Source: an uncultured Muribaculaceae bacterium
GTDB lineage: Bacteria > Bacillota_I > Bacilli_A > RF39 > UBA660
Assembly: GCA_964404455.1 (NCBI GenBank)
Contig: CAYOJY010000002.1
Span: 1 to 32,806 of the forward strand
Reading direction: 5' to 3'
Length of the DNA: 32,806 nucleotides
Positions 20,662 through 30,486 of the stretch are shown in pieces (within the stretch, counting starts at the first letter, position 1; the number at the start of each line of letters is the position of its first letter). The notes under the pieces are model-generated. The model did no database searches, was not told the origin of the DNA, and saw only the letters and a program-made list of their open reading frames with translations. The translations under genes and the position numbers were made by a program.

Positions 20662-21771
20662 TTAATTAATTATTTCTTCAGTTACAATAAATACCTCTAT
20701 ATCTATTTTACTATCATTTATACTTTTTTTCAAAACTTTTTTACTAATTATCTTTTCATTTGCCTTTAATTTTAACTTTATTTTGTTTTCTGCCTCTAAA
20801 AGGGCTTTTTGAAGTCCCGTTTTTTCATCATAAATATATTTTTTTCTAATGATTTCTTCTTCTTTTTCTAAATACAAACGATAATTAAATAAATCAAATA
20901 AAATCTTATAGCTACTTTGACTATTTTTTATTCTTTTTCTTAAAATTCTTTTTTTATAATTAAGATGCTGAAATAATAAATTATATCTACTTTTTCCACT
21001 TTTTTCATCAATAAAATACTCTAAGGGCAAACTAACACTTACTTCATACCAACGTTCAGCATTAATTATTCCTTCCGCACAAACTTGAGTTTTTAAGGAT
21101 TCGTTATATACAATATTACCTGTAATTAATAAATCTCCTTCTTTAACATAATCACCAATTGTAACTAAATTTACCCCTTTAAGAACATTTAATCCAGTAA
21201 TTACCCCATTTTTTTTAGCATAAACATCACAAAATAAAACTTTTTCTTCTTTCTTCGTAATAATTCTTTCTTCAGCTCGAACTATATATTTCATTCCTTT
21301 ATTTTCAATTTCCAACCAATCTAATTTATCAGGATATTTTTGTAAAATTTTTTCTTTAATTTTATTTATTTTTTGATAACTTTTTTTAAAAGTTAATGGC
21401 TTTAAATTATTTTCCAATAATTCTTCTTTAATAATATTTTTAATTTCTTTTTTTTCATGAATTATTTGAATATCAATAATTACATTATTAAATATCAAAA
21501 AGAAAATTAATCCACTTAAAGAAATAATAAAAAATAATAAATTTTTGTGAATTAATTCAAAAAAATAATTAATACCGGTTTTTTTATCAATTGTAAATTT
21601 ATAACTAATAATATACTTTTTAACTTTTATATAATCACTTAAACTTATTTTTAAAAAAACATATTTTTTTGTTTTTTTAATTTCATAAACATTAATATAT
21701 AAATTGTTTAATTTATTTATTAATTTATAATAATTATTATTTTCTGTTTTAATCCAAATAATATCATTCAT
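20662..21771 (-). CDS. yqfD: Sporulation protein YqfD
   Basis: About 370 aa with a central TM segment. It lies immediately downstream of, and overlaps, the yqfC-like gene. The N-terminal pattern is typical of YqfD. Confidence 0.75.
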   Translation of the reverse strand: MNDIIWIKTENNNYYKLINKLNNLYINVYEIKKTKKYVFLKISLSDYIKVKKYIISYKFTIDKKTGINYFFELIHKNLLFFIISLSGLIFFLIFNNVIIDIQIIHEKKEIKNIIKEELLENNLKPLTFKKSYQKINKIKEKILQKYPDKLDWLEIENKGMKYIVRAEERIITKKEEKVLFCDVYAKKNGVITGLNVLKGVNLVTIGDYVKEGDLLITGNIVYNESLKTQVCAEGIINAERWYEVSVSLPLEYFIDEKSGKSRYNLLFQHLNYKKRILRKRIKNSQSSYKILFDLFNYRLYLEKEEEIIRKKYIYDEKTGLQKALLEAENKIKLKLKANEKIISKKVLKKSINDSKIDIEVFIVTEEIIN

Positions 21772-22009
21772 GATTATAATTTAAACTTTTAATTGTTCCT
21801 TTAATTAATACCTCATTCTTCAGCATTTTTTTAATTAAAAGTTTTTCCCCTTTTACAATTAAAACAAAATCAACAAATTGAAATATCATTTCCTCATTAT
21901 TAAATTTTTGAATTTTTTCAAAATTATATATGTGAATATAATTCTTATACAACGATACAAAGTATTCTTGATCATATAAAAAATTTTTTATATTATCTTT
22001 TAAATTCAC
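21764..22009 (-). CDS. yqfC: YabP/YqfC-family sporulation protein
   Basis: 81 aa. The pattern IHIYNFEKIQKFNNEEMIF...LIVKGEKLLIKKMLKNEVLIKGTIKSL fits the YabP/YqfC repeat pattern. Its position between rpsU and yqfD matches B. subtilis. Confidence 0.7.
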   Translation of the reverse strand: MNLKDNIKNFLYDQEYFVSLYKNYIHIYNFEKIQKFNNEEMIFQFVDFVLIVKGEKLLIKKMLKNEVLIKGTIKSLNYNHE

Positions 22010-22038
22010 ATTATCACCATTTAAATTATATGAAAATT

Positions 22039-22064
22039 AAAAAAGACTATTGCAAAAGTCTTTT
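22039..22064 (-). terminator. Rho-independent terminator of rpsU (AAAAGACT-loop-AGTCTTTT followed by a T-run on the minus strand)
   Basis: An inverted repeat, read directly, about 20 nt past the rpsU stop. On the minus strand it reads GAAAAGACTtttgcaatAGTCTTTTTTAATTTT. Confidence 0.6.
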
Positions 22065-22084
22065 CAAAAACCATTAAATCTTAA

Positions 22085-22276
22085 TTAATAACGATCTTTT
22101 TTAGATTTACGAGAATTTTTAATGCCTTCTTTAATTTCATTTCTTTTCTTTACGCCAGGTTTCTCGTAATGTTTTCTTTTTTTTACTTCAGAAAGGACGC
22201 CGCTTTTAGCTACCTTAGCTTTTAGTTTTCGTAATGCACCATCAACGTTTCCATTTTGAACTACTACTTTTGTCAT
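22085..22276 (-). CDS. rpsU: 30S ribosomal protein S21
   Basis: A basic 63-aa protein with GALRKLKAKVAKSGVLSEVKKRKHYEKPGVKKR. GGGAGGG RBS. Confidence 0.95.
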   Translation of the reverse strand: MTKVVVQNGNVDGALRKLKAKVAKSGVLSEVKKRKHYEKPGVKKRNEIKEGIKNSRKSKKDRY

Positions 22277-22305
22277 TTTCCGCCCTCCCTTCGTTTCTGT
22301 AAGTT

Positions 22306-22334
22306 ATTATAGCACTATTTCCCCCAACACACAA
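22306..22334 (-). promoter_or_regulatory. Putative sigma-A promoter of rpsU (TTGTGT-17 nt-TATAAT with an extended -10 TG)
   Basis: The minus strand reads TTGTGT gttgggggaaatagTGc TATAAT, about 30 nt upstream of the rpsU ATG. Confidence 0.45.
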
Positions 22335-22467
22335 CTAAAAATAACTGCAATAAGCTTCCTTTTTAAAATTAATTTTACAATTTAACTAAGTAATAAAAGA
22401 ATCATTTTCTTTTTTACGGTTAGTGTTAATCAAAAATTTTATATTTTAGAAAATATAATTTTATTAT

Positions 22468-22497
22468 AAAAACTGTTGACTTTTAATCAACAGTTTT
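22468..22497 (-). terminator. Rho-independent terminator closing the bacteriocin operon
   Basis: The minus strand reads AAAACTGTTGA-ttaaaag-TCAACAGTTTTT, starting about 10 nt after the stop of the second peptide gene. The element is symmetric, with an A-run on the other side. Confidence 0.65.
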
Positions 22498-22507
22498 ATC
22501 TTTTAGT

Positions 22508-22669
22508 TTAACAATAATTTTTTCTAATACTATTTTTTATTGCTGAACCAACTAACTGCCCAAGTAATAAGAACGTTGAAGCTAATCTAGAAATTGCATT
22601 TACCATTGTTGAAGAAATACTGGCTCCGCCATTTATTTCTTGTAATTCAATATTATTTAATACTATCAT
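22508..22669 (-). CDS. Double-glycine-leader peptide B (53 aa), putative class II bacteriocin precursor; not in the ORF track
   Basis: Manual translation gives MIVLNNIELQEINGG/ASISSTMVNAISRLASTFLLLGQLVGSAIKNSIRKNYC. The 15-aa leader fits the consensus (L)..EL..I.GG. The mature part is amphipathic and cationic, with a GxxxG motif (GQLVG). The ATG lies 2 nt after the peptide A stop, which suggests translational coupling. Confidence 0.75.
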   Translation of the reverse strand: MIVLNNIELQEINGGASISSTMVNAISRLASTFLLLGQLVGSAIKNSIRKNYC

Positions 22670-22671
22670 TT

Positions 22672-22812
22672 TTATTTACGACATTTAAACGGATTTAAAT
22701 AACCATCAATAATCCCTATCAAAAATGCTCCTACACCAATTAATGCTAAAGCTAATCCTATACTAGCGCCACCTTTTATTTCAGTTAATTCAGTACTTGC
22801 TAATTTATGCAT
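22672..22812 (-). CDS. Double-glycine-leader peptide A (46 aa), putative class II bacteriocin precursor; not in the ORF track
   Basis: Manual translation gives MHKLASTELTEIKGG/ASIGLALALIGVGAFLIGIIDGYLNPFKCRK. A strong RBS, GAAAGGAGAAACG, precedes the ATG. The leader is 15 aa and ends in GG. The mature part is a hydrophobic, small-residue-rich helix with a cationic tail. The gene starts 12 nt downstream of the accessory gene. Confidence 0.8.
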   Translation of the reverse strand: MHKLASTELTEIKGGASIGLALALIGVGAFLIGIIDGYLNPFKCRK

Positions 22813-22824
22813 CGTTTCTCCTTT

Positions 22825-23217
22825 CTATGTTATTTTTTTAATTATTCTTTCTTCTTGATAATATACTTTAATTTTCACAATTTCATTTTCTAATAATTTT
22901 TTGGGCATACTTATTTGATATTTTTGGTAATTAATTAAATTTATTTCATCAATTAATAATTCACTAATATTTAAGATTTTAAAATCATACTTTTGATTGT
23001 TTACCATAACATAATTAGCGTTATTAATTTTATCAACATCTTTAATTGGTATATTAATAAAGTATTTGCCTTCCGCACAATATAAAATTGATTCATAAAC
23101 AGAATATATTTTTATATTTAAAACAAAAATCACAAAAATAATTAATACCAAAGTTACAATTATTAACGGATATTTTTTTAACTTTATATTTAATAAATCC
23201 TGATAATTATCAAACAT
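22825..23217 (-). CDS. Membrane-anchored 130-aa protein; putative minimal HlyD/LcnD-type bacteriocin export accessory protein (an immunity role is not excluded)
   Basis: A short cytoplasmic N-terminus (MFDNYQDLLNIKLKKY, cf. MFDKKLLESSELYDKRY of LcnD), one TM segment, and about 85 aa of beta-rich sequence. Its start overlaps the ABC gene stop by 8 nt (ATGTTTGA). The long coiled-coil of canonical accessory proteins of about 450 aa is absent. Confidence 0.4.
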   Translation of the reverse strand: MFDNYQDLLNIKLKKYPLIIVTLVLIIFVIFVLNIKIYSVYESILYCAEGKYFINIPIKDVDKINNANYVMVNNQKYDFKILNISELLIDEINLINYQKYQISMPKKLLENEIVKIKVYYQEERIIKKIT

Positions 23218-25246
23218 TTATTACCTGTTGAAAATAATTATCTAAGTTTTTATGACTAACATATATAATTGTTTTATCTTTAAATAAATTCTTAAGATTA
23301 TTTATTATTTTTCTTTCAGTAAAAATATCCACTTCACTTAATGCTTCATCAATAATTAATATTTTAAAATCATTAAGACACGCTCTTGCTAAGACGATTC
23401 TTTGCTTCTCTCCTCCTGATAAATTATTTGAATCAACATTAATATAAGTCTCATATCTCAATGGTTTATTTTTAATTATTTCATCGACACAGCAAATTTT
23501 GCAAATTTCAGTAAATAATTTCAAATTTAAATTCCGAAAAAACAAAATATTATTTTTTAATGTATCAGAATATAAATATTCTTTTTGAGACACATAAAGT
23601 ATATTTTTCTTAATTGTTGATAAACTAAGATCATTTATAGAAATATTTCCAATAGTCAGATTTCCTTTTTCTAGCTTTTCACATTTGGCAATTAATTTAC
23701 AAATTGTACTTTTACCACAGCCACTTTTACCTTTTATTAAAATATGTTCTCCCAACTTAACATTTAAATTGAAATTATTTAAAACATAATTTATTTTATT
23801 ATAACTAAAACTCACATTTTGCAATTTTATATCAAAATTATCAATTTTTTCTTCTTGGCCTAATACTTCTTTTTCAATATTCATAAATTCACTTAATTTA
23901 TGAATTGATGCTCTTACAAAATTGTATTTAGGTATATTATTTATAATATTTTTAACTGGATCAAGAAAAAAAATCATTAACGAATTAAAAGTTATTAAAT
24001 TTGGTAAAGTTAATTTATTTTGATAGACTAAAATAAATCCTACGGTATTAACTAAATAAAACCCTATTTCATTGACATATGTTTTTAAACTTATTTGTAA
24101 ATTACTAGTTTTAATTAAACGGTAATTATCATACATAAATCTACTAACATTTTTCTCAATGTAATTTAATATTTTACCAGTTATAGATAAATTTTTAATA
24201 CTGCTGATCATCGTTATGCTTTCTACAAATATTGAACTAAACTTATCTTCTAATTCCATATTTTTTAAAATCTTTTTGTATAACACTTTTTTAAAGGTTA
24301 TACCTAAAATTAAATAAATTAATAAAATTCCTAAAAGAATAAAAAATAAAATCTTATTAATATAAATCAAAACTGGAATTAAAAAGATGATTAATAATGA
24401 GTCTAAAATTAAAGATACAAATATTTCTGAAAATAAATTTTTAAAATTGTTTAAATCATTTATTCTGGCAATAATTTCTCCAATAGTTCTAGACTGAACC
24501 ATCTTTAAAGGAAGGTTTAATATATGATTTATAAAATCTTTAAATAAATGAACATCAATATTTTTGTTTAAATGATTTTCATAATACAATCTAAGTTGAC
24601 TTAATATTGCTTTGAATAATGTTACTATGAAAAAAAGCAAAAAAATTATTTTTAAAAATTTAAACCCATTATCTAAATTTTCTAAACTAACTTTAAAATA
24701 ATATCCATTTATTATAGTCAAAATCATTAAAATAACACTAGCTAAAATAATTTGCCAAACTAAACCTTTTTCTGTTTTTATTATTTTGATAAATAAATCT
24801 ATTAATTTAGTTTCTTTTTTAAAAAAGACTATTTCTCTTGATGGATAAAATTCTATTATTTTTTTAGTCCATATTTTCAAAAATTCATCTTTTGATAATA
24901 CTTTTTTCCCAAAAGCTGGATCCATTATTATTGCTTTTTTATTATCTAGATGATATAACACAACAAAGTGCTGCAAATTATTTAAAACGACATGACAGAT
25001 AGCTGGTAAGGTCAAAGAAACATTATTAATTTCGGTTTCTTCAATTTGAAATCCTGCAGAATCAAAACCATACTTTTTAGCCGAATCAATTATATTGAAT
25101 GCTGTGGTGCCTTCCTGATTAGTACAGGTATCTGATATAACTCTTTCTAAAGTTATGTTCCCACCATAATACTTAATAATTGACAAAAGCGCTGCCGCAC
25201 CACAATCTTTTAAATTATGCTGTTTAACAACAATGACTTTTTTTAT
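23210..25246 (-). CDS. Peptidase C39 domain-containing bacteriocin ABC exporter (ComA/LcnC/LagD family); start inferred at a non-canonical ATA codon
   Basis: The C39 catalytic motifs are Q-HNLK-DCGAAALLSIIKYYGG, HFVVLY and IIMDP. There are six TM segments. The ABC motifs are GKSGCGKST, LSGGEKQR, ILIIDEALS and YVSH. The track ORF (23210..25186, TTG start) begins after the catalytic Cys. The frame stays open for 22 more codons back to a TGA. The GGGAGG RBS is 8 nt from an in-frame ATA at 25246. Confidence 0.85.
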   Translation of the reverse strand: MKKVIVVKQHNLKDCGAAALLSIIKYYGGNITLERVISDTCTNQEGTTAFNIIDSAKKYGFDSAGFQIEETEINNVSLTLPAICHVVLNNLQHFVVLYHLDNKKAIIMDPAFGKKVLSKDEFLKIWTKKIIEFYPSREIVFFKKETKLIDLFIKIIKTEKGLVWQIILASVILMILTIINGYYFKVSLENLDNGFKFLKIIFLLFFIVTLFKAILSQLRLYYENHLNKNIDVHLFKDFINHILNLPLKMVQSRTIGEIIARINDLNNFKNLFSEIFVSLILDSLLIIFLIPVLIYINKILFFILLGILLIYLILGITFKKVLYKKILKNMELEDKFSSIFVESITMISSIKNLSITGKILNYIEKNVSRFMYDNYRLIKTSNLQISLKTYVNEIGFYLVNTVGFILVYQNKLTLPNLITFNSLMIFFLDPVKNIINNIPKYNFVRASIHKLSEFMNIEKEVLGQEEKIDNFDIKLQNVSFSYNKINYVLNNFNLNVKLGEHILIKGKSGCGKSTICKLIAKCEKLEKGNLTIGNISINDLSLSTIKKNILYVSQKEYLYSDTLKNNILFFRNLNLKLFTEICKICCVDEIIKNKPLRYETYINVDSNNLSGGEKQRIVLARACLNDFKILIIDEALSEVDIFTERKIINNLKNLFKDKTIIYVSHKNLDNYFQQVINV

Positions 25247-25377
25247 TACATAAACCTCCCTTCACTCAAATTATTACATTAAAATATTATTTATCCTTTT
25301 ATTGATTCGAATTTTTAATTTTTGAGCATAAGTCAGAATAATTAATCATAGGATTTATTGATAATTGGAGGATATAT

Positions 25378-25866
25378 ATGATTAACAAAGAAAATTTATG
25401 GTTTATAACCCTTTTTTCATTAATATTAGTTTTAGGAATTTACTATGTCACAATGAAAGATGACGAATTAAAAGTTTCAGCAGTTAAAAATAATTCATCA
25501 TTAAAATTAGATGTTACGGAAGTTGATTCCCTTGTAGCACTTCGAGTTGAAGAAGAAGAAATGTCTTTAAAAGAAATTGAAGAATTACAAACAATCTTAT
25601 TAGATGAAAAAACAACAATTGAAGAAAAAAACGATGCTTATGAAAATTTACAAGCATTAAATACACAAAAAGGAAAAGTTGAGGAAGTTGAAAAGTTAAT
25701 CAAAAATAAATTTTCACTTGACTCATTCGTCAAAATTAAAAATGATCAAATAAATATCGTTATTGCCGGTAAAAATCATGATACTAGCTTGGCAAACGAA
25801 ATAATTCGCTCAGTTCAGGAAAAATATACTAACCAAATGTACATAACCGTTAAATTTCAGCCATAA
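25378..25866 (+). CDS. spoIIIAH: Stage III sporulation protein AH-like (SpoIIIAH family)
   Basis: The N-terminal KENLWFITLFSLILVLGIYYV parallels B. subtilis KQTVWLLTMLSLVVVLSVYYI. The C-terminal ALRVEEEE...EEKNDAYENLQAL...VEKLIKNKFSLDSFVKIKNDQINIVIAG...ITVKFQP parallels the SpoIIIAH YscJ-like domain. GGAGGA RBS. Confidence 0.75.
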   Translation: MINKENLWFITLFSLILVLGIYYVTMKDDELKVSAVKNNSSLKLDVTEVDSLVALRVEEEEMSLKEIEELQTILLDEKTTIEEKNDAYENLQALNTQKGKVEEVEKLIKNKFSLDSFVKIKNDQINIVIAGKNHDTSLANEIIRSVQEKYTNQMYITVKFQP

Positions 25867-25873
25867 CATCATC

Positions 25874-25901
25874 ACCACTTTTTCTTCACATTCATAAAAT
25901 A
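25874..25901 (+). promoter_or_regulatory. Sigma-K-like promoter upstream of gerE (AC-17 nt-CATAaaaTA)
   Basis: The sequence tcACcactttttcttcacattCATAAAATA matches the B. subtilis sigma-K consensus AC / CATA---TA with a 17-nt spacer. It lies about 35 nt before the gerE ATG. Such a short motif is weak evidence in AT-rich DNA. Confidence 0.3.
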
Positions 25902-25935
25902 TTATGAGGCAATTATAAAAAGAAAGTGAGGAAAA

Positions 25936-26142
25936 ATGAAAAAAAGCATATTAACCCCAAGAGAAAAACAAGTATTTGAGTTATTAATTATAAATAAATC
26001 TACAAAAGAAATTGGAAAACTATTAAATATAAGCGAAAAAACTGTTCGCAATCACATATCAAATACAATGCAAAAATTGGAAGTAAAAGGAAGATCGCAA
26101 GCTATAATTGAATTACTTAAATTAGGTGAATTAAAATTATAG
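25936..26142 (+). CDS. gerE: LuxR-type HTH sporulation regulator GerE
   Basis: [63 protein letters not shown] is nearly colinear with B. subtilis GerE ([63 protein letters not shown]). Confidence 0.9.
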   Translation: [68 protein letters not shown]

Positions 26143-26158
26143 ACTTCGGTCTTTTTTG
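26141..26158 (+). terminator. Short AGAC-UUCG-GUCU hairpin followed by a T-run after gerE
   Basis: A 4-bp stem with a UUCG tetraloop followed by TTTTTT, overlapping the gerE stop. It is marginal as a terminator. Confidence 0.3.
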
Positions 26159-26203
26159 GTGATATAAAAAAGTTTTTAAAATATAATTTAATAGGGTGTG
26201 CTA

Positions 26204-27109
26204 ATGCTAAAAGAAAGTGCTTTTAAAAGAATATTTATAGCCACATTGGCTTTATTTACATTAATATTTTTATATTTATTTCCTATTAAAAATAATAATG
26301 AAGTTAATGAATCAATTACTTATATTAATGCCATAAAAATGCCAATATATTTAATTGATGAAAATAATTATGTAGCTAGAGTTCATATTTTAAAAAATAG
26401 TGAAAATATTAATGATAATATTAAAGAAATAATTAAAAATTTAACTATTAATGAAAAAAACGAAGATTATTTACCTGAGGGTTTTAAAGCTATAATACCA
26501 TCAAATACTAAAATAAATAGTTTTTCTTTAAATAATGGTTTATTAAAATTAGATTTTTCCAAAGAATTTTTAAACATAAGCAAAAATAAAGAAGTTAAAT
26601 TAATAGAAACTTTAATATTTTCTTTAACTGAACTTAAGGAAGTTAAAAAAATTATGATTTTTATTGATGGTGAAAAACTAAATAAATTACCTCATAGTAA
26701 AATTTATTTACCAGAAAATCTAGATAAATCTTTTGGAATAAACAAAGTATATGAATTAAATTCTTTTAAAAACATTGTTCAAACAACGACATATTATATT
26801 GCTAAAAATACTGATGAAACTTATTATATTCCAATTTCAAAATATAGTAATGATAGTAATGAAAAAGTAGAAATAATTATCAAAAATTTAAAATCATCGC
26901 CTATTAATCAAACTAATTTAATTAGTTATTTAAAAGCATCTGCTTCATTAAAATCTTATCAAATATTAGAAGAAGGTATTATACTCAGCTTTGATAATAA
27001 CTTAATTGCTGATTTATCCAATAAAAACATTATTGAAGAAGTAAAGTATTCAATTTATTTATCTTTAAGAGATACATATAACATTGAATCTGTTAGTTTT
27101 AATATATAA
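26204..27109 (+). CDS. gerM: GerMN-domain protein (GerM-like germination/sporulation lipoprotein)
   Basis: An N-terminal signal/anchor, then two repeats with the GerMN pattern (LLKLDFSKEFLNISKNKEVKLIETLIFSLTELKEVKKIMIFIDGEKL). The start is set at the ATG at 26204 (AGGGTG RBS) rather than the GTG at 26198. Confidence 0.6.
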   Translation: MLKESAFKRIFIATLALFTLIFLYLFPIKNNNEVNESITYINAIKMPIYLIDENNYVARVHILKNSENINDNIKEIIKNLTINEKNEDYLPEGFKAIIPSNTKINSFSLNNGLLKLDFSKEFLNISKNKEVKLIETLIFSLTELKEVKKIMIFIDGEKLNKLPHSKIYLPENLDKSFGINKVYELNSFKNIVQTTTYYIAKNTDETYYIPISKYSNDSNEKVEIIIKNLKSSPINQTNLISYLKASASLKSYQILEEGIILSFDNNLIADLSNKNIIEEVKYSIYLSLRDTYNIESVSFNI

Positions 27110-27141: not shown

Positions 27142-27287
27142 AATTATGATGTTTTTGGCAGGATTTATATTTGGTAATAAAGTGTTTATTGAAAAATAAA
27201 GTAATTAGGACTGCCCTAGTGAAATTAAATAAACTCCCTATTATTCAAAATAAACAATTAGCTTTAAATATTAAGAAAGGAGAACAA
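27142..27287 (+). promoter_or_regulatory. Long 5' leader of rpsD, a candidate S4 autoregulatory leader
   Basis: About 140 nt separate the promoter from the RBS. GGCAGG (about 27157) and CTGCC (about 27213) are complementary over a long range. B. subtilis rpsD is known to be autoregulated through its leader. No structural model was verified here. Confidence 0.35.
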
Positions 27288-27890
27288 ATGGCAAGATATA
27301 CTGGACCAGCTTATAAAAAATCAAGAAGATTAGGTTTTTCTACTTTAGAAAACGGAAAAGAATTAGCTAAAAAACCTTATCCCCCAGGAGCTCATGGACA
27401 AGATCGTAAACGTAAACTTAATGACTATGGAATTCAGCTTCAAGAAAAACAAAAAGTGCGAATTATGTATGGCTTAACTGAAAAACAATTTAAAAAGACA
27501 TTTGAAAAAGCTGCTAAAATGAAAGGTATTGCCGGGGAAAATTTATTAACTTTATTAGAGTCTAGATTAGATAATTTAGTTTATCGCATGGGTTTGGCTA
27601 GAACCAGACGCTCATCAAGACAAATAGTTAACCACGGTCATATTTTAGTAAATGGAAAAAAAGTAGATATACCATCATATACGTGTAAAATTGGCGATGT
27701 TATTTCCGTTAAAGAACAATCTCTTAATCATCCGGCAATAATTGATGCGTTAGAAGTAACGGTTTCAAACCCCGCTTTTGTGGAATTTGATAAGAAAAAG
27801 TTAATTGGTAAATATATTAGATTACCAGAAAGAAACGAATTAAATGCCGAAGTTAATGAACAATTAATTGTTGAATTTTACAATAGATAA
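27288..27890 (+). CDS. rpsD: 30S ribosomal protein S4
   Basis: [18 protein letters not shown]..., 200 aa, with an S4 RNA-binding domain ([42 protein letters not shown]). AAGGAGA RBS. The track ORF begins far upstream at a non-ATG codon. Confidence 0.95.
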
Positions 27891-27943: not shown

Positions 27944-29221
27944 TTAATTATTTTCATGAGGATCCATCACAAAAATAGAAATATTATTAGTTTTTAAATA
28001 AGCTATCATTTTATTTAATTTTACATAATCAATTTTTTCATATTCTTCTTTAATATTGTCAATAATTTTATTATAAGTAATAATATTATTCTGAATTATA
28101 TAATTAACTTTTTCGACCCCTTCAAAATTTAAAATTAAATAAGCAATTTGGGCTTTTTGTTTACGTTTTACTTCATCTTCTGTTACTTCTAATTTTTTTA
28201 ATTTTTCTTTAATTAATTTAATAATTTCTTCTTTAAATCTAGTTTCAAATGATATAACTATTATAACATAATCATCGTATATATTGCCACTAGCAGATAA
28301 GGATGTAACTAAATTATTTTCTAATAAAAAATCGTTAAATTCACTGGTTAAGCCAAAATTAATATTTAAAATTAATGATAAAAATATTCTGATTTCCAAA
28401 TCACTTAAATTTTTAAATTTTGCTTTAGAAATTTTTAAACCTACTTTAACTTTGGGCGCAACTATATTTGCTTTAATTTCTTTATATTTTTCATTTACTT
28501 TTTCTTTTTCTTTAATCTTAGTTATTTTAGATTTTTTAAAAATATCAAATTCTTTAGTTGCTTGATTTTGTTTTACTATTTCAAACATTTCATGAGGATT
28601 AAAATTACCAGTTATACATAAAAACATATTTTCCGGATGATAAAAACTATCAAATACATTTTTTACATCTTCAATCGTTATTTTTTTTATATTTTCAATA
28701 TTTCCAATTATCAAATTTCGATAATTGGATTTTTCAAATAAATTTTTAAAAATACCAAAATAATTTACTAAATTAGAATCATCTTCACCCATTTTTTCTT
28801 CTTCAACAATAATTCCTTTTTCTTTAGCTATCATTTTTTGAGTAAAATATGGAGTTTGCACAAAATCCAGCAAATGATTTATGTTTTCTTCTATTTTATC
28901 CATCGCATAAACGTGATAACATGTATATTCAAAAGTGGTAAAAGCATTAACTTCAGCTCCATTTTTATAAAAAAAATCATGAGCAGTCGTTCCGTCTTTT
29001 TCATTAAATTTAATATGTTCTAAAAAATGAGCTACACCCTCAGGTGTTTTAATTCTTTTATTATTAACATTAAAATCAGTATGAATTGAACCATATTTAA
29101 TTGATAAACTCATAAATACCGAATTAATTTTATCATTAACCCACATATAGACATCTAATCCGTTGGCGCATTTCCCATAATAAACAATCTCATCTAAACC
29201 TTTTATATTAATTTCTTTCAT
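27944..29221 (-). CDS. M16-family zinc peptidase (insulinase-like), active-site-bearing subunit
   Basis: The inverted zinc motif HFLEH (GVAHFLEHIKF) with a downstream NAFTTFEYTCY segment. 425 aa. Confidence 0.85.
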   Translation of the reverse strand: MKEINIKGLDEIVYYGKCANGLDVYMWVNDKINSVFMSLSIKYGSIHTDFNVNNKRIKTPEGVAHFLEHIKFNEKDGTTAHDFFYKNGAEVNAFTTFEYTCYHVYAMDKIEENINHLLDFVQTPYFTQKMIAKEKGIIVEEEKMGEDDSNLVNYFGIFKNLFEKSNYRNLIIGNIENIKKITIEDVKNVFDSFYHPENMFLCITGNFNPHEMFEIVKQNQATKEFDIFKKSKITKIKEKEKVNEKYKEIKANIVAPKVKVGLKISKAKFKNLSDLEIRIFLSLILNINFGLTSEFNDFLLENNLVTSLSASGNIYDDYVIIVISFETRFKEEIIKLIKEKLKKLEVTEDEVKRKQKAQIAYLILNFEGVEKVNYIIQNNIITYNKIIDNIKEEYEKIDYVKLNKMIAYLKTNNISIFVMDPHENN

Positions 29222-30486
29222 TTAACTACCTCACTTTTTAAGGTATAAATAGTATTAATTTTAATTTTTTTGGCAACCTCTACAATTTGTTTTTTATTTA
29301 TTTGTTTTAATAATGCCATTCTATCTTCAATAGGCGGTAAATTATCATACACATTAAAAACATAATTATTTAAAATTGAAATATTATTATCCAAAGAAAT
29401 ATTTAAAGAAAACAATAAATTATTTTTAGCATCTTCTAAATTTTCTTCACTAAAATTACCTTTAATCATCTCTTTTAAACAATTCATTATTAATTTAATT
29501 GCTTTTTTTCTCCCCGACTCATCTAAGGAAACTTGAACAATTAACAAATTATCATATTTTAAATATATACTATAAATACCATAACATAAAGAATTTTCTT
29601 CCCGAACTTTTTGATACAGTTTTGAAGATAATCCCCCACTGCCAAAAATATAATTAAAGACTTGAATATTTATATTTTTTTCTTCAATCGTTAAGCCATT
29701 TAAATTAAAAATCAAATTTAAATTAGATTGAACAAAATTAGCGTTATCAATAATTGTTAAAGGTTTTTTTCTTAATTTATTTTCAATATGTAATGAGAGC
29801 TTACTAGTTTTTATTGTTCTTAATTTAAATACTTTCGAAATAATTTTATATACCTCATCAAAATCGATATTTCCTATTAAAAATACATCACAATGATTAT
29901 TATTAATCATATTTTGATATTCTTTATATAAAGTAACTGGCGTAATGTTTTCTAATTCTTCTAAAGTTCCTAAAACTGAATAACTTGTTTTACTATCTTT
30001 ATCCATTTTTTGTAAAGCATTATTAATTGATAATTTTGTAGGATCTTCATTAATACTTTCAATACTTCTTTTCATTCTTTCTTTAATAATATTAAAAGTT
30101 TTTATTTCAAATTCATTATTAATGACTTTAGGCTTTAAAATCATTTCAAAAGGAAGCATTAATGCTTTTTCTAAATAACCTTCTTCTGAAATATAATGCG
30201 GCGCAATAAAATCATATATAAACATTGTATTAATAATCCCACCGGTTTTACTAGCTGTGCCGTAGAAAAAAGCTTTATACAATTCTTCTAATTTAATAAC
30301 AACATCTTTTCTGGTACTATATATCTTTGAACAATCTGTTAATATATCACATAAAAAAGTTTTGAAATTTAAATTTTCTTTTTTAACTTCATCTCTAAAA
30401 TGTATTTCCATATGACAAACTTTTGATTTATCAGTTTTTATTAAATGCAACTTATATGAATTTAAATCATAACTTCTGATTTCCAT
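29218..30486 (-). CDS. M16-family peptidase homologue lacking the HxxEH motif (probable non-catalytic partner)
   Basis: The size and position are the same as in the paired YmfF/YmfH-type genes, with a 4-nt overlap with the downstream M16 gene. No HxxEH was seen; only HMEIH is present. The family call rests on architecture and context. Confidence 0.65.
   Translation of the reverse strand: MEIRSYDLNSYKLHLIKTDKSKVCHMEIHFRDEVKKENLNFKTFLCDILTDCSKIYSTRKDVVIKLEELYKAFFYGTASKTGGIINTMFIYDFIAPHYISEEGYLEKALMLPFEMILKPKVINNEFEIKTFNIIKERMKRSIESINEDPTKLSINNALQKMDKDSKTSYSVLGTLEELENITPVTLYKEYQNMINNNHCDVFLIGNIDFDEVYKIISKVFKLRTIKTSKLSLHIENKLRKKPLTIIDNANFVQSNLNLIFNLNGLTIEEKNINIQVFNYIFGSGGLSSKLYQKVREENSLCYGIYSIYLKYDNLLIVQVSLDESGRKKAIKLIMNCLKEMIKGNFSEENLEDAKNNLLFSLNISLDNNISILNNYVFNVYDNLPPIEDRMALLKQINKKQIVEVAKKIKINTIYTLKSEVVK

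What the first reader, a model, noticed from the sequence alone, without database searches (positions are those of the whole stretch)
22508..22812. Two unannotated double-glycine-leader peptide genes: a putative two-peptide class II bacteriocin
The apparent intergenic gap between rpsU and the 130-aa ORF holds two tandem small minus-strand ORFs that fall below the ORF-track cutoff. Peptide A is MHKLASTELTEIKGG/ASIGLALALIGVGAFLIGIIDGYLNPFKCRK. Peptide B is MIVLNNIELQEINGG/ASISSTMVNAISRLASTFLLLGQLVGSAIKNSIRKNYC. Both have 15-aa leaders that fit the double-glycine consensus (EL..I.GG). Both predicted mature peptides begin with ASI, and both are hydrophobic or amphipathic with cationic C-termini and G-x-x-x-G-type small-residue motifs. 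Peptide A has a strong RBS. Peptide B starts 2 nt after the peptide A stop, which implies coupled, roughly equimolar synthesis as expected for a two-peptide (class IIb) bacteriocin. I do not recognise either mature sequence as a named bacteriocin.
Basis: partly seen in the sequence, partly recalled or inferred. Interest (0 to 1): 0.8.

Follow-up and report, generated by a model that had tools for sequence, protein, structure and literature searches.

The report
Conserved two-peptide bacteriocin-like export operon
Two small genes next to a peptide-cleaving export pump encode a conserved pair of secreted membrane-type peptides, most likely a two-peptide bacteriocin of a new sequence family; this is a routine kind of locus with a few unusual details.

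Summary
Two minus-strand ORFs, 22672-22812 (46 aa) and 22508-22669 (53 aa), each carry a textbook 15-aa double-glycine leader. They are the only two such ORFs in the window, against 0.02 expected by chance. They end a four-gene operon: a C39-peptidase ABC exporter, a 130-aa membrane protein, pepA and pepB, followed by a strong terminator.

Both peptides matched only themselves in a 5.8-billion-protein index. Context searches nevertheless recovered the same A-then-B pair in about ten other uncultured low-GC lineages. Across these lineages the order is fixed, the genes are tightly coupled, and dN/dS is about 0.2-0.3. Each peptide has an invariant GxxxG motif and one invariant Cys at a fixed distance from it.

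Three A-type relatives pass NCBIfam TIGR03949 (class IIb bacteriocin, lactobin A/cerein 7B family). The window's own peptides pass no curated family.

It differs from canonical class IIb loci in four ways:
- No immunity gene was found next to any locus.
- The accessory protein is a 130-aa member of an uncharacterised family, not a HlyD-type protein of about 450 aa.
- The cassette is vertically inherited upstream of rpsU.
- The exporter's start codon here is ATA where a relative has ATG.

Verdict: a real, probable class IIb-like bacteriocin and a new member of a known kind. Activity is untested.

The parts
23210..25246 (-). Peptide-cleaving ABC exporter (678 aa if started at ATA 25246-25244), with an N-terminal C39 peptidase domain, a six-helix ABC membrane domain and an ATPase domain
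   Evidence: Pfam gives C39 1.7e-31, ABC_membrane 6e-29 and ABC_tran 2e-24. NCBIfam TIGR01193 scores 387 bits (cut-off 524) and NF045998 (Mbov_0121 family) 291 bits. Q9/C15/H93/D109 are invariant in six orthologues. The first canonical start (TTG 25186) lies after the catalytic Cys. ATA aligns with the ATG of L006 and sits 8 nt after GGGAGG. The sequence is identical in three independent assemblies.
25255..25260 (-). Shine-Dalgarno GGGAGG of the exporter gene, followed by an out-of-frame ATG-TAA (25251-25246) that overlaps the in-frame ATA
   Evidence: Read directly from the sequence and aligned to orthologues.
22825..23217 (-). 130-aa single-pass membrane protein (TM helix 15-33 plus an extracytoplasmic all-beta domain), either a putative minimal accessory/adaptor or an immunity protein. 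It overlaps the ABC stop by 8 nt.
   Evidence: Exhaustive phmmer finds 158 cluster representatives, all about 130-145 aa and full length. There is no Pfam family. The NF045999 MAG1140 family match is weak: 5.9e-5 for the window protein, and 10 of 102 relatives match. The AF2 model has pLDDT 93. The best PDB fold matches are weak and are mostly membrane-fusion/periplasmic adaptor proteins (BesA E 0.03 with TMq 0.41, ZneB, MacA, MexA, AcrA, Spr0693), interleaved with leukotriene A4 hydrolase entries at similar E-values.
22818..22821 (-). Shine-Dalgarno GGAG of pepA, 5 nt before the ATG
   Evidence: Read directly from the sequence.
22672..22812 (-). pepA precursor (46 aa): leader 22768-22812 (15 aa) and mature 31-aa hydrophobic peptide 22675-22767 (3204.9 Da, pI 9.2, GRAVY 1.16), with GxxxG 'GIIDG' and the motif DGYxNPxKC
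   Evidence: The family alignment has G33/G37 invariant and Cys in 9 of 10 sequences. dN/dS is 0.25 for the L015/L019 pair. Relatives from L009, L015 and L019 score 22.4-27.9 bits against the TIGR03949 cut-off of 21.5.
22508..22669 (-). pepB precursor (53 aa): leader 22625-22669 (15 aa) and mature 38-aa amphipathic cationic peptide 22511-22624 (4028.7 Da, pI 10.3), with GxxxG 'GQLVG', GSAI and a C-terminal KNYC
   Evidence: The family alignment has G37/G41 invariant. dN/dS is 0.18-0.33 in four of six pairs; the other two give 0.56 and 0.80. tblastn gives 47.5% identity over 40 aa (E 0.02) to a Streptococcus suis plasmid peptide annotated as class IIb, lactobin A/cerein 7B family.
22469..22497 (-). 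Intrinsic terminator of the operon: a 13-bp stem followed by UUUUUAUAAU, starting about 10 nt after the pepB stop
   Evidence: The fold has dG -12.8 kcal/mol and z -5.4, with 0 of 200 shuffles as stable. It is the only terminator-like site in 22000-25500.

Best explanation
This is a four-gene operon: ABC exporter with a C39 peptidase domain, a 130-aa membrane protein, pepA and pepB, ending at a terminator. It makes and exports two unmodified peptides.

Shown by sequence: both precursors carry 15-aa double-glycine leaders. pepB is translationally coupled to pepA, which favours near-equimolar synthesis. The exporter has an intact C39 catalytic set (Q9, C15, H93, D109) and intact ATPase motifs.

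Inferred from the established mechanism of C39-ABC (PCAT) exporters and class IIb bacteriocins (PMC2850506): the C39 domain binds the leader, cuts after Gly-Gly, and the transporter moves the mature peptides out. These are A (31 aa, very hydrophobic, cationic tail) and B (38 aa, amphipathic, cationic).

Inferred further: outside the cell, A and B insert into a target membrane as helices and pack through their invariant GxxxG motifs. Their cationic, Cys-bearing C-termini would lie on the same side. The pair would permeabilise the membrane of related bacteria, probably through a membrane-protein receptor.

The 130-aa protein has an N-in TM helix and an outside beta domain with weak resemblance to the membrane-fusion-protein barrel. 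It most likely assists export as a minimal accessory protein, or confers immunity.
For: - The ORFs, leaders, RBS and coupling are as described. The leader pattern is unique to these two ORFs, with 0.02 expected by chance.
- The exporter domains and invariant catalytic residues are present.
- A terminator follows directly after pepB, and no known RNA family lies in the region.
- The same A-then-B pair sits next to an orthologous exporter in L006, L007 (two tandem A-B pairs), L008 and L009. Those four loci were found through the exporter and are therefore unbiased with respect to the peptides. The pair also occurs in L015, L018, L019 and L020, and in L016 with an A-like ORF that lacks the GG.
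- Purifying selection is indicated: dN/dS is 0.18-0.33 in most pairs.
- GxxxG is invariant in both families. One Cys sits at a fixed spacing, 7 residues after the second Gly of GxxxG in A and 12 residues after it in B, including in the very divergent L007 peptides.
- The A and B profiles share only the leader (hhalign E 3e-9 over 15 columns), so they are two different peptide families, as in class IIb.
- A-type relatives pass TIGR03949, the class IIb family. pepB is weakly similar to a TIGR03949-annotated S. suis peptide.
- The accessory protein belongs to a real family with a high-confidence fold, and its best PDB matches are dominated by membrane-fusion proteins.
- The defining features of class IIb are taken from PMC2850506.
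Against: - No immunity-type gene lies next to the peptides in the window or in any related locus. The review states that one is always in the operon.
- The window's own peptides reach no curated bacteriocin model. Their only hits are sub-threshold, and where a matched stretch passes on its own it is the leader.
- The 130-aa protein is missing from L009 and L018. Its fold matches are not significant: no match has E<=1e-3.
- The exporter gene has ATA instead of ATG at its start in this organism. Translation of the full-length, Cys-containing exporter may therefore be weak.
- The cassette is inherited vertically at a fixed core-genome position across relatives whose Era proteins are only 64-71% identical. 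This is not typical of bacteriocin islands.
- There is no expression or activity data.
Confidence: 0.6

Rival explanations
1. The two exported peptides are not toxins. They would be signalling or other cell-cell or self-directed peptides, for example pheromones or kin-directed factors, using the same double-glycine export route.
For: No immunity gene accompanies any locus. The cassette has been kept at the same chromosomal site upstream of rpsU in six lineages with genus- or family-level divergence, like a housekeeping trait rather than a variable weapon. Double-glycine leaders are shared with ComC/BlpC-type pheromones, and the leader gives weak hits to such models.
Against: No histidine kinase or response regulator lies next to any locus. 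The mature peptides are 31-38 aa, strongly hydrophobic or amphipathic, with invariant GxxxG motifs. That is the pattern of membrane-inserting bacteriocins, not of known pheromones. A-type relatives pass the class IIb model TIGR03949.
Confidence: 0.15
2. pepA and pepB are two independent one-peptide (class IId-like) bacteriocins that merely share an exporter.
For: L007 carries four double-glycine peptides in a row, so such loci can accumulate peptides. L017 shows a B-type gene with no A-type gene upstream on a short contig. The mature parts of A and B are unrelated in sequence.
Against: One A and one B co-occur, always in the order A then B. They are separated by -4 to +26 nt in nine loci, and in L007 they appear as two alternating A-B pairs. 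Each peptide has an invariant GxxxG and a single Cys at fixed spacing, which suggests a shared interface.
Confidence: 0.1
3. The locus is silent or decaying in this particular organism. With ATA in place of the ATG start, the exporter is either barely translated or starts at TTG 25186 without its catalytic Cys, so the peptides are not processed or exported.
For: The ATA aligns with the ATG of L006. The only canonical start lies 19 codons after the catalytic Cys codon and has no Shine-Dalgarno sequence. The same sequence occurs in three independent assemblies, so it is not a sequencing error.
Against: The rest of the 678-codon frame, the accessory gene and both peptide genes are intact. The GGGAGG is correctly spaced for ATA. 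ATA and ATT are accepted rare initiators in bacterial table 11 (general knowledge). The locus is 99.96-100% identical across five metagenomes, so these data are too similar to show whether decay is under way.
Confidence: 0.12
4. The two ORFs are chance open frames in an AT-rich intergenic region.
For: They are short and have no Pfam domain. Only self-hits were found in the indexed protein search.
Against: The leader pattern is far beyond chance. Homologous pairs are conserved with dN/dS well below 1 in most pairs. An RBS, translational coupling and a terminator are all present.
Confidence: 0.01

Closest known systems
Class IIb (two-peptide, unmodified) bacteriocins such as lactococcin G, which carries structural, ABC and accessory genes in one operon (PMC2850506)
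   Same: Two different adjacent peptide genes are present, each with a 15-aa double-glycine leader. A dedicated C39-ABC exporter and a small accessory-like protein lie in the same operon. Both peptides have GxxxG motifs and cationic ends, and there are no modification enzymes.
   Different: There is no immunity gene. The gene order is exporter, accessory, then peptides. The accessory protein is 130 aa and belongs to an uncharacterised family. The mature sequences are unrelated to any characterised or structurally solved bacteriocin. Each peptide has one invariant Cys near its C-terminus. The locus lies in the core chromosome and is inherited vertically.
NCBIfam TIGR03949, class IIb bacteriocin, lactobin A/cerein 7B family
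   Same: A-type relatives from L009, L015 and L019 score 22.4-27.9 bits against the cut-off of 21.5, over model positions 2-44 of 45. pepB is 47.5% identical over 40 aa to an S. suis pBM407 member of this family.
   Different: The window's pepA and pepB give no hit at E<=1. B-type peptides match the model only in the leader. The S. suis peptide lacks the C-terminal Cys tail.
Mycoplasma 'Mbov_0121 family peptidase domain-containing ABC transporter' (NF045998) with 'MAG1140 family protein' (NF045999)
   Same: It has the same two-gene core: a C39-ABC exporter followed by a membrane protein of about 130 aa. The window's exporter scores 291 bits and its 130-aa protein 23 bits (E 6e-5) to these models. 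Ten of 102 relatives of the 130-aa protein also hit NF045999.
   Different: Both scores are below the curated cut-offs (500 and 35 bits). I found no publication on the function of the Mycoplasma pair. I could not check whether Mycoplasma loci carry A/B-like peptides.
Lactococcin B (one-peptide bacteriocin whose single Cys must be reduced for activity; recalled from the literature, not checked here)
   Same: It has a single functionally important Cys in an otherwise unmodified double-glycine-leader peptide.
   Different: It is a one-peptide system with an unrelated sequence. The relevance is only as a precedent that a lone Cys need not form a disulfide.

Membership tests
Class IIb two-peptide bacteriocin (definition in PMC2850506) | Two different peptides encoded by adjacent genes in one operon | tested here: met
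   pepA and pepB are 2 nt apart on the same strand, with a single terminator after pepB. The order A then B is conserved in relatives.
Class IIb two-peptide bacteriocin (definition in PMC2850506) | [quoted passage not shown] | tested here: met
   Both leaders are 15 aa and fit the consensus positions. The pattern is unique in the window. The leader profiles of the A and B families align at E 3e-9.
Class IIb two-peptide bacteriocin (definition in PMC2850506) | Dedicated ABC transporter that cleaves the leader (C39 domain) and exports the peptide | tested here: met
   C39, ABC_membrane and ABC_tran domains are present. Q/C/H/D are invariant. The caveat is the non-canonical ATA start. Cleavage itself cannot be tested here.
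Class IIb two-peptide bacteriocin (definition in PMC2850506) | Immunity gene in the same operon as the two peptide genes | tested here: not met
   There is no additional gene between the exporter and the terminator other than the 130-aa protein. No CAAX/Abi or other small multi-TM gene lies next to the peptides in any locus. The 130-aa protein could fill this role, but that is unproven, and it is absent from L009 and L018.
Class IIb two-peptide bacteriocin (definition in PMC2850506) | Accessory protein encoded with the ABC transporter | tested here: inconclusive
   A 130-aa TM plus beta-domain protein overlaps the ABC stop codon. It has no HlyD/Pfam match and only weak fold resemblance to membrane-fusion proteins.
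Class IIb two-peptide bacteriocin (definition in PMC2850506) | GxxxG motifs in the peptides for helix-helix packing | tested here: met
   A has G33xxxG37 and B has G37xxxG41, invariant in all 10 and 12 aligned sequences respectively.
Class IIb two-peptide bacteriocin (definition in PMC2850506) | [quoted passage not shown] | not testable with these tools
   This needs synthetic or expressed peptides and indicator strains.
NCBIfam TIGR03949 (class IIb bacteriocin, lactobin A/cerein 7B family) | Score at or above the curated cut-off of 21.5 bits | tested here: not met
   The window's pepA and pepB give no hit at E<=1. Orthologous A peptides from L009, L015 and L019 do pass at 22.4, 24.6 and 27.9 bits, and the L008 peptide scores 20.4.
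Pfam PF10439 Bacteriocin_IIc; NCBIfam lactococcin G alpha/beta families (NF038035/NF038034) | Score at or above the curated cut-off (27.1 and 37 bits) | tested here: not met
   The scores are 13-14 bits. The PF10439 match to pepB covers only the leader region; the lactococcin G-family matches have no stretch that passes on its own.
NCBIfam NF045999 MAG1140 family / NF045998 Mbov_0121-family exporter | Score at or above the curated cut-offs (35 and 500 bits) | tested here: not met
   The scores are 23.2 and 291.4 bits. These are distant relatives, not members.

The most novel reading that the evidence does not exclude
The A/B pair may define a distinct subclass of double-glycine two-peptide systems. 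Each mature peptide carries one invariant Cys at a fixed distance from its GxxxG motif, and these may link A and B into a covalent disulfide heterodimer of about 7231.6 Da, or make activity thiol- or redox-dependent. In this reading the system is immunity-less and part of the core genome of a clade of uncultured low-GC anaerobes, which points to a role beyond ordinary strain-level warfare. It would be exported with a previously uncharacterised mini-adaptor family shared distantly with Mycoplasma.
Probability: 0.15. Interest if true: 0.65.

Novelty: new member of a known kind. Interest (0 to 1): 0.38.

Why it matters
If active, this would be a first look at bacteriocin-type peptides from an uncultured, spore-forming, roughly 25% GC Bacillota lineage. 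That lineage was seen in digestate from full-scale biogas plants (PRJNA533495; PMC7842101). The peptide sequences are unrelated to any characterised bacteriocin.

The comparative set assembled here gives ready-made hypotheses for structure-function work. It comprises about ten A/B pairs with invariant GxxxG, a DGxxxPxxC motif in A and a GSAI-x5-K-x2-C motif in B, and a lone Cys in each peptide.

Three features make it a slightly atypical case that could inform how such systems are kept without self-killing: the systematic lack of an immunity gene, the vertical inheritance, and the 130-aa accessory family (158 sequence clusters, no Pfam, confident beta-barrel model, distant link to Mycoplasma MAG1140).

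As it stands, it is one more genome-mined putative class II bacteriocin.

Tried and rejected
- Indexed homology searches with pepA, pepB and the 130-aa protein returned only the queries themselves. Relatives had to be found through context instead: an exporter-based genome scan and a hand-made degenerate DNA pattern.
My first DNA pattern had a miscounted spacer and matched nothing.
- A PADLOC scan gave no defence-system match.
- An Rfam scan of 21500-26500 found no RNA family. The 'gap' is therefore not a known riboswitch or leader RNA.
- A viral-contig scan with the pepB pattern gave no hit. tblastn of an A-type relative and of the 130-aa protein against plasmids gave no hit. pepA against plasmids gave only noise.
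- Profile searches of the A, B and accessory families against PDB sequences gave nothing beyond a leader-only match to precarnobacteriocin B2.
- A RiPP or modified-peptide reading was rejected. No modification enzymes lie in the window. The M16 peptidase pair at 27944-30486 sits in a housekeeping context several genes away.
- A sporulation-specific role was considered because of the neighbouring genes (SpoIIIAH-like, GerM, YqfC/D). It was rejected because L006 keeps the cassette between rpsD and rpsU without those genes, and L009, L015 and L019 carry it in other contexts.
- A search for regulatory direct repeats upstream of the exporter found none.
- Literature searches found nothing on the Mycoplasma MAG1140/Mbov_0121 pair or on disulfide-linked two-peptide bacteriocins.
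Full report
**1. The observation**

The minus strand between the 130-aa ORF and rpsU holds two ORFs exactly as described.
- pepA is 22672-22812, 46 aa.
- pepB is 22508-22669, 53 aa.
- pepA has a GGAG 5 nt upstream of its ATG.
- pepB starts 2 nt after the pepA stop and has no Shine-Dalgarno sequence of its own, so the two are translationally coupled.

Both N-termini match the double-glycine leader consensus at every diagnostic position: hydrophobic at -4, -7, -12 and -15, Glu at -8, Gly-Gly at -2/-1. A strict regular expression for this leader, applied to every 30-100 aa ORF in all six frames, hits only these two ORFs. One hundred Markov-1 simulations of the window give a mean of 0.02 hits and a maximum of 1.

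A 13-bp hairpin followed by a U-run starts about 10 nt after the pepB stop. It has dG -12.8 kcal/mol and z -5.4. No Rfam family matches the region.

'Unannotated' is only partly right. Both peptides already exist as unnamed predicted proteins from NCBI and Logan in the protein collection.

**2. The operon**

Three genes lie upstream on the same strand and form one unit with the peptides.

The exporter (23210-25246) has C39 peptidase, ABC membrane and ABC ATPase domains. Its best NCBIfam hits are below their cut-offs: TIGR01193 'peptide cleavage/export ABC transporter' at 387 bits (cut-off 524) and the Mycoplasma NF045998 family at 291 bits (cut-off 500).

The 130-aa protein (22825-23217) overlaps the exporter's stop codon.

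The catalytic Cys motif (KDCGAAALL) lies upstream of the first canonical start, TTG 25186. The frame is open back to a TGA at 25264-25262, and the only plausible initiator is ATA 25246-25244, 8 nt after GGGAGG. This ATA aligns with the ATG start codon of the 60%-identical orthologue in L006. The sequence is identical in three independent metagenome assemblies, so it is a real ATG-to-ATA difference. In an alignment of six orthologues, the oxyanion Gln, Cys, His and Asp of the C39 domain (Q9, C15, H93, D109) and the ATPase motifs are invariant.

**3. Relatives**

Indexed searches with pepA, pepB and the 130-aa protein found only themselves. The same locus, at 99.96-100% identity, occurs in five public sequencing runs. 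Three of these runs are digestate metagenomes of full-scale biogas plants, PRJNA533495 (PMC7842101).

A genome-collection scan with the exporter protein recovered relatives at 60%, 49%, 46% and 33% identity: L006, L007, L008 and L009. Each carries, directly downstream, an A-type and then a B-type double-glycine peptide. L007 carries two alternating A-B pairs.

A degenerate DNA pattern built from pepB (GG-x21-G-x3-GSAI-x5-K[NS][YI]C) found six more metagenome contigs.
- Four of them (L015, L018, L019, L020) also encode an A-type peptide just upstream.
- L016 has an A-like ORF that lacks the GG, on a contig assembled at 2x coverage.
- L017 shows a B-type gene alone near a contig end.

**4. What is conserved**

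| Feature | A family | B family |
|---|---|---|
| Mature region | Hydrophobic and Gly-rich | Amphipathic, with a basic tail |
| Invariant GxxxG | G33xxxG37, 'G[IV][IL]DG' | G37xxxG41 |
| Other motif | [NR]-P-x-[KR]-C, then 1-4 mostly basic residues | G[ST]AI |
| Spacing of the single Cys | 7 residues after the second Gly | 12 residues after the second Gly |

The Cys spacing holds even in the very divergent L007 peptides.

There is an ascertainment caveat. My metagenome pattern required the B-type Cys. The exporter-derived loci (L006-L009) and all A-type peptides are unbiased, and they still show the Cys.

Profile-profile comparison of the A and B families aligns only the 15-residue leader (E 3e-9), so the mature parts belong to two different families.

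Nei-Gojobori estimates give dN/dS of 0.18-0.33 for most pairs (two pairs give 0.56 and 0.80), with synonymous sites close to saturation. The intergenic distance between A and B ranges from a 4-nt overlap to 26 nt.

**5. Properties of the predicted mature peptides**

| Property | Mature A | Mature B |
|---|---|---|
| Length | 31 aa | 38 aa |
| Average mass | 3204.9 Da | 4028.7 Da |
| pI | 9.2 | 10.3 |
| Other | GRAVY 1.16 | Hydrophobic moment 0.47 over residues 2-19 |

**6. The 130-aa protein**

- An exhaustive HMMER search found 158 cluster representatives, nearly all 130-145 aa and aligned end to end.
- None of 102 members has a meaningful Pfam hit.
- Ten of the 102 hit NCBIfam NF045999, 'MAG1140 family protein' of Mycoplasma.
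- The AlphaFold2 model is confident (pLDDT 93). It shows an N-terminal TM helix (residues 15-33) followed by an all-beta domain.
- Foldseek against the PDB finds nothing at E<=1e-3. Membrane-fusion/periplasmic adaptor proteins are prominent among the best matches (BesA E 0.03 with TMq 0.41, ZneB, MacA, MexA, AcrA, Spr0693), but leukotriene A4 hydrolase entries fill most of ranks 2-22 at similar E-values.
- The protein is absent from L009 and L018.

I therefore read it as a minimal accessory/adaptor of the exporter, with immunity as an open alternative. The class IIb review itself notes that accessory proteins may serve either role (PMC2850506).

**7. Comparison with known families**

- The window's peptides give only sub-threshold hits to PF10439 and the lactococcin G alpha/beta models (13-14 bits). 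The PF10439 match to pepB covers only the leader.
- A-type orthologues from L009, L015 and L019 pass the curated cut-off of TIGR03949, 'class IIb bacteriocin, lactobin A/cerein 7B family'. They score 22.4-27.9 bits against 21.5, over leader plus hydrophobic core.
- pepB is 47.5% identical over 40 residues (E 0.02) to an S. suis pBM407 peptide carrying that annotation.
- No structurally solved bacteriocin is related beyond the leader.
- Measured against the definition in PMC2850506, the locus meets these features: two adjacent genes, double-glycine leader, dedicated exporter, GxxxG.
- It fails one feature: no immunity gene in the operon.
- It is inconclusive on the accessory protein.
- Synergy cannot be tested here.

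**8. Genomic setting**

The window is core chromosome of a spore-former with about 25% GC. It encodes SpoIVA, SpoIIP, Der, MiaA, RseP-type M50, DivIVA, SepF, RecO, Era, YbeY, YqfD, YqfC and RpsU, then the cassette, then SpoIIIAH-like, GerE-like, GerM and RpsD.

The cassette sits upstream of rpsU in the window and in L006, L007, L008, L018 and L020. The flanking proteins are only moderately similar: Era 64-71%, YbeY 46-58% and RpsD 80% identical. This implies long vertical inheritance rather than a mobile island.

L006 keeps the cassette although yqfC, yqfD, spoIIIAH and gerM are missing around it. L009, L015 and L019 carry it elsewhere. A sporulation-specific role is therefore unlikely.

**9. 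Conclusion**

It is a double-glycine two-peptide export system of the class IIb type, from a new peptide sequence family.

What is shown:
- gene structure;
- leaders;
- exporter domains and catalytic residues;
- conservation, pairing and purifying selection.

What is inferred:
- cleavage after GG;
- 1:1 action through GxxxG packing;
- membrane permeabilisation of competitors.

The unusual points are the absence of an immunity gene, the lone invariant Cys in each peptide, the mini accessory family, the vertical inheritance and the ATA start. They keep open a more novel reading, either a covalent or redox-dependent heterodimer or a non-warfare role, which I rate at about 15%.

Noticed in passing
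window 25244-25264 (minus strand): The exporter gene has ATA where the L006 orthologue has its ATG start. An out-of-frame ATG-TAA mini-ORF sits between the Shine-Dalgarno sequence and the ATA and overlaps the ATA by one base. The sequence is identical in three independent assemblies. This is either a non-canonical start or an early step of gene decay.
   Followed up: partly
L006, L008, L009 (record titles): The public record titles call these MAGs 'uncultured Muribaculaceae bacterium'. The two checked here, L006 and L008, show close synteny to the ~25% GC window, and L008 carries endospore genes (SpoIIIAH-like, GerM). These are features of Bacillota, so the titles look mislabelled.
   Followed up: no
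L007 10447-11020: There are four double-glycine peptide genes in a row, arranged as two alternating A-type/B-type pairs. The second pair is shorter and its B-type peptide lacks the Cys.
   Followed up: partly
window 22825-23217 and alignment A2: The 130-aa protein belongs to an uncharacterised family of at least 158 sequence clusters with no Pfam model. It has a very confident predicted TM plus beta-barrel fold and a distant link to the Mycoplasma MAG1140 family, which is encoded next to a C39-ABC exporter.
   Followed up: partly
L018 2007-2798: In L018 the 130-aa accessory gene is absent, and a 263-aa multi-pass membrane protein lies directly upstream of the exporter on the same strand. It is a possible alternative accessory or immunity candidate.
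   Followed up: no
L016 ~975-1080: The A-type ORF here (MILKEQELLEATLGAIGIFIAGVVDGILRPLRCN) lacks the Gly-Gly of the leader. The contig has only 2x coverage, so this may be an assembly error or a degenerate copy.
   Followed up: no
L006 7000-12200: This relative has the cassette between rpsD and rpsU but lacks the spoIIIAH-like, gerM, yqfC and yqfD genes that flank it in the window. This suggests loss of sporulation genes in that lineage.
   Followed up: partly
window 25342-25385: A perfect 9-nt inverted repeat, TTAATCATA/TATGATTAA, with a 26-nt spacer spans the start of the divergent SpoIIIAH-like gene. It could be chance in AT-rich DNA.
   Followed up: no
window 27171-27890: The longest rpsD ORF starts at a TTG 40 codons upstream of where the S4 profiles begin. 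The true start is probably the ATG near 27288.
   Followed up: no
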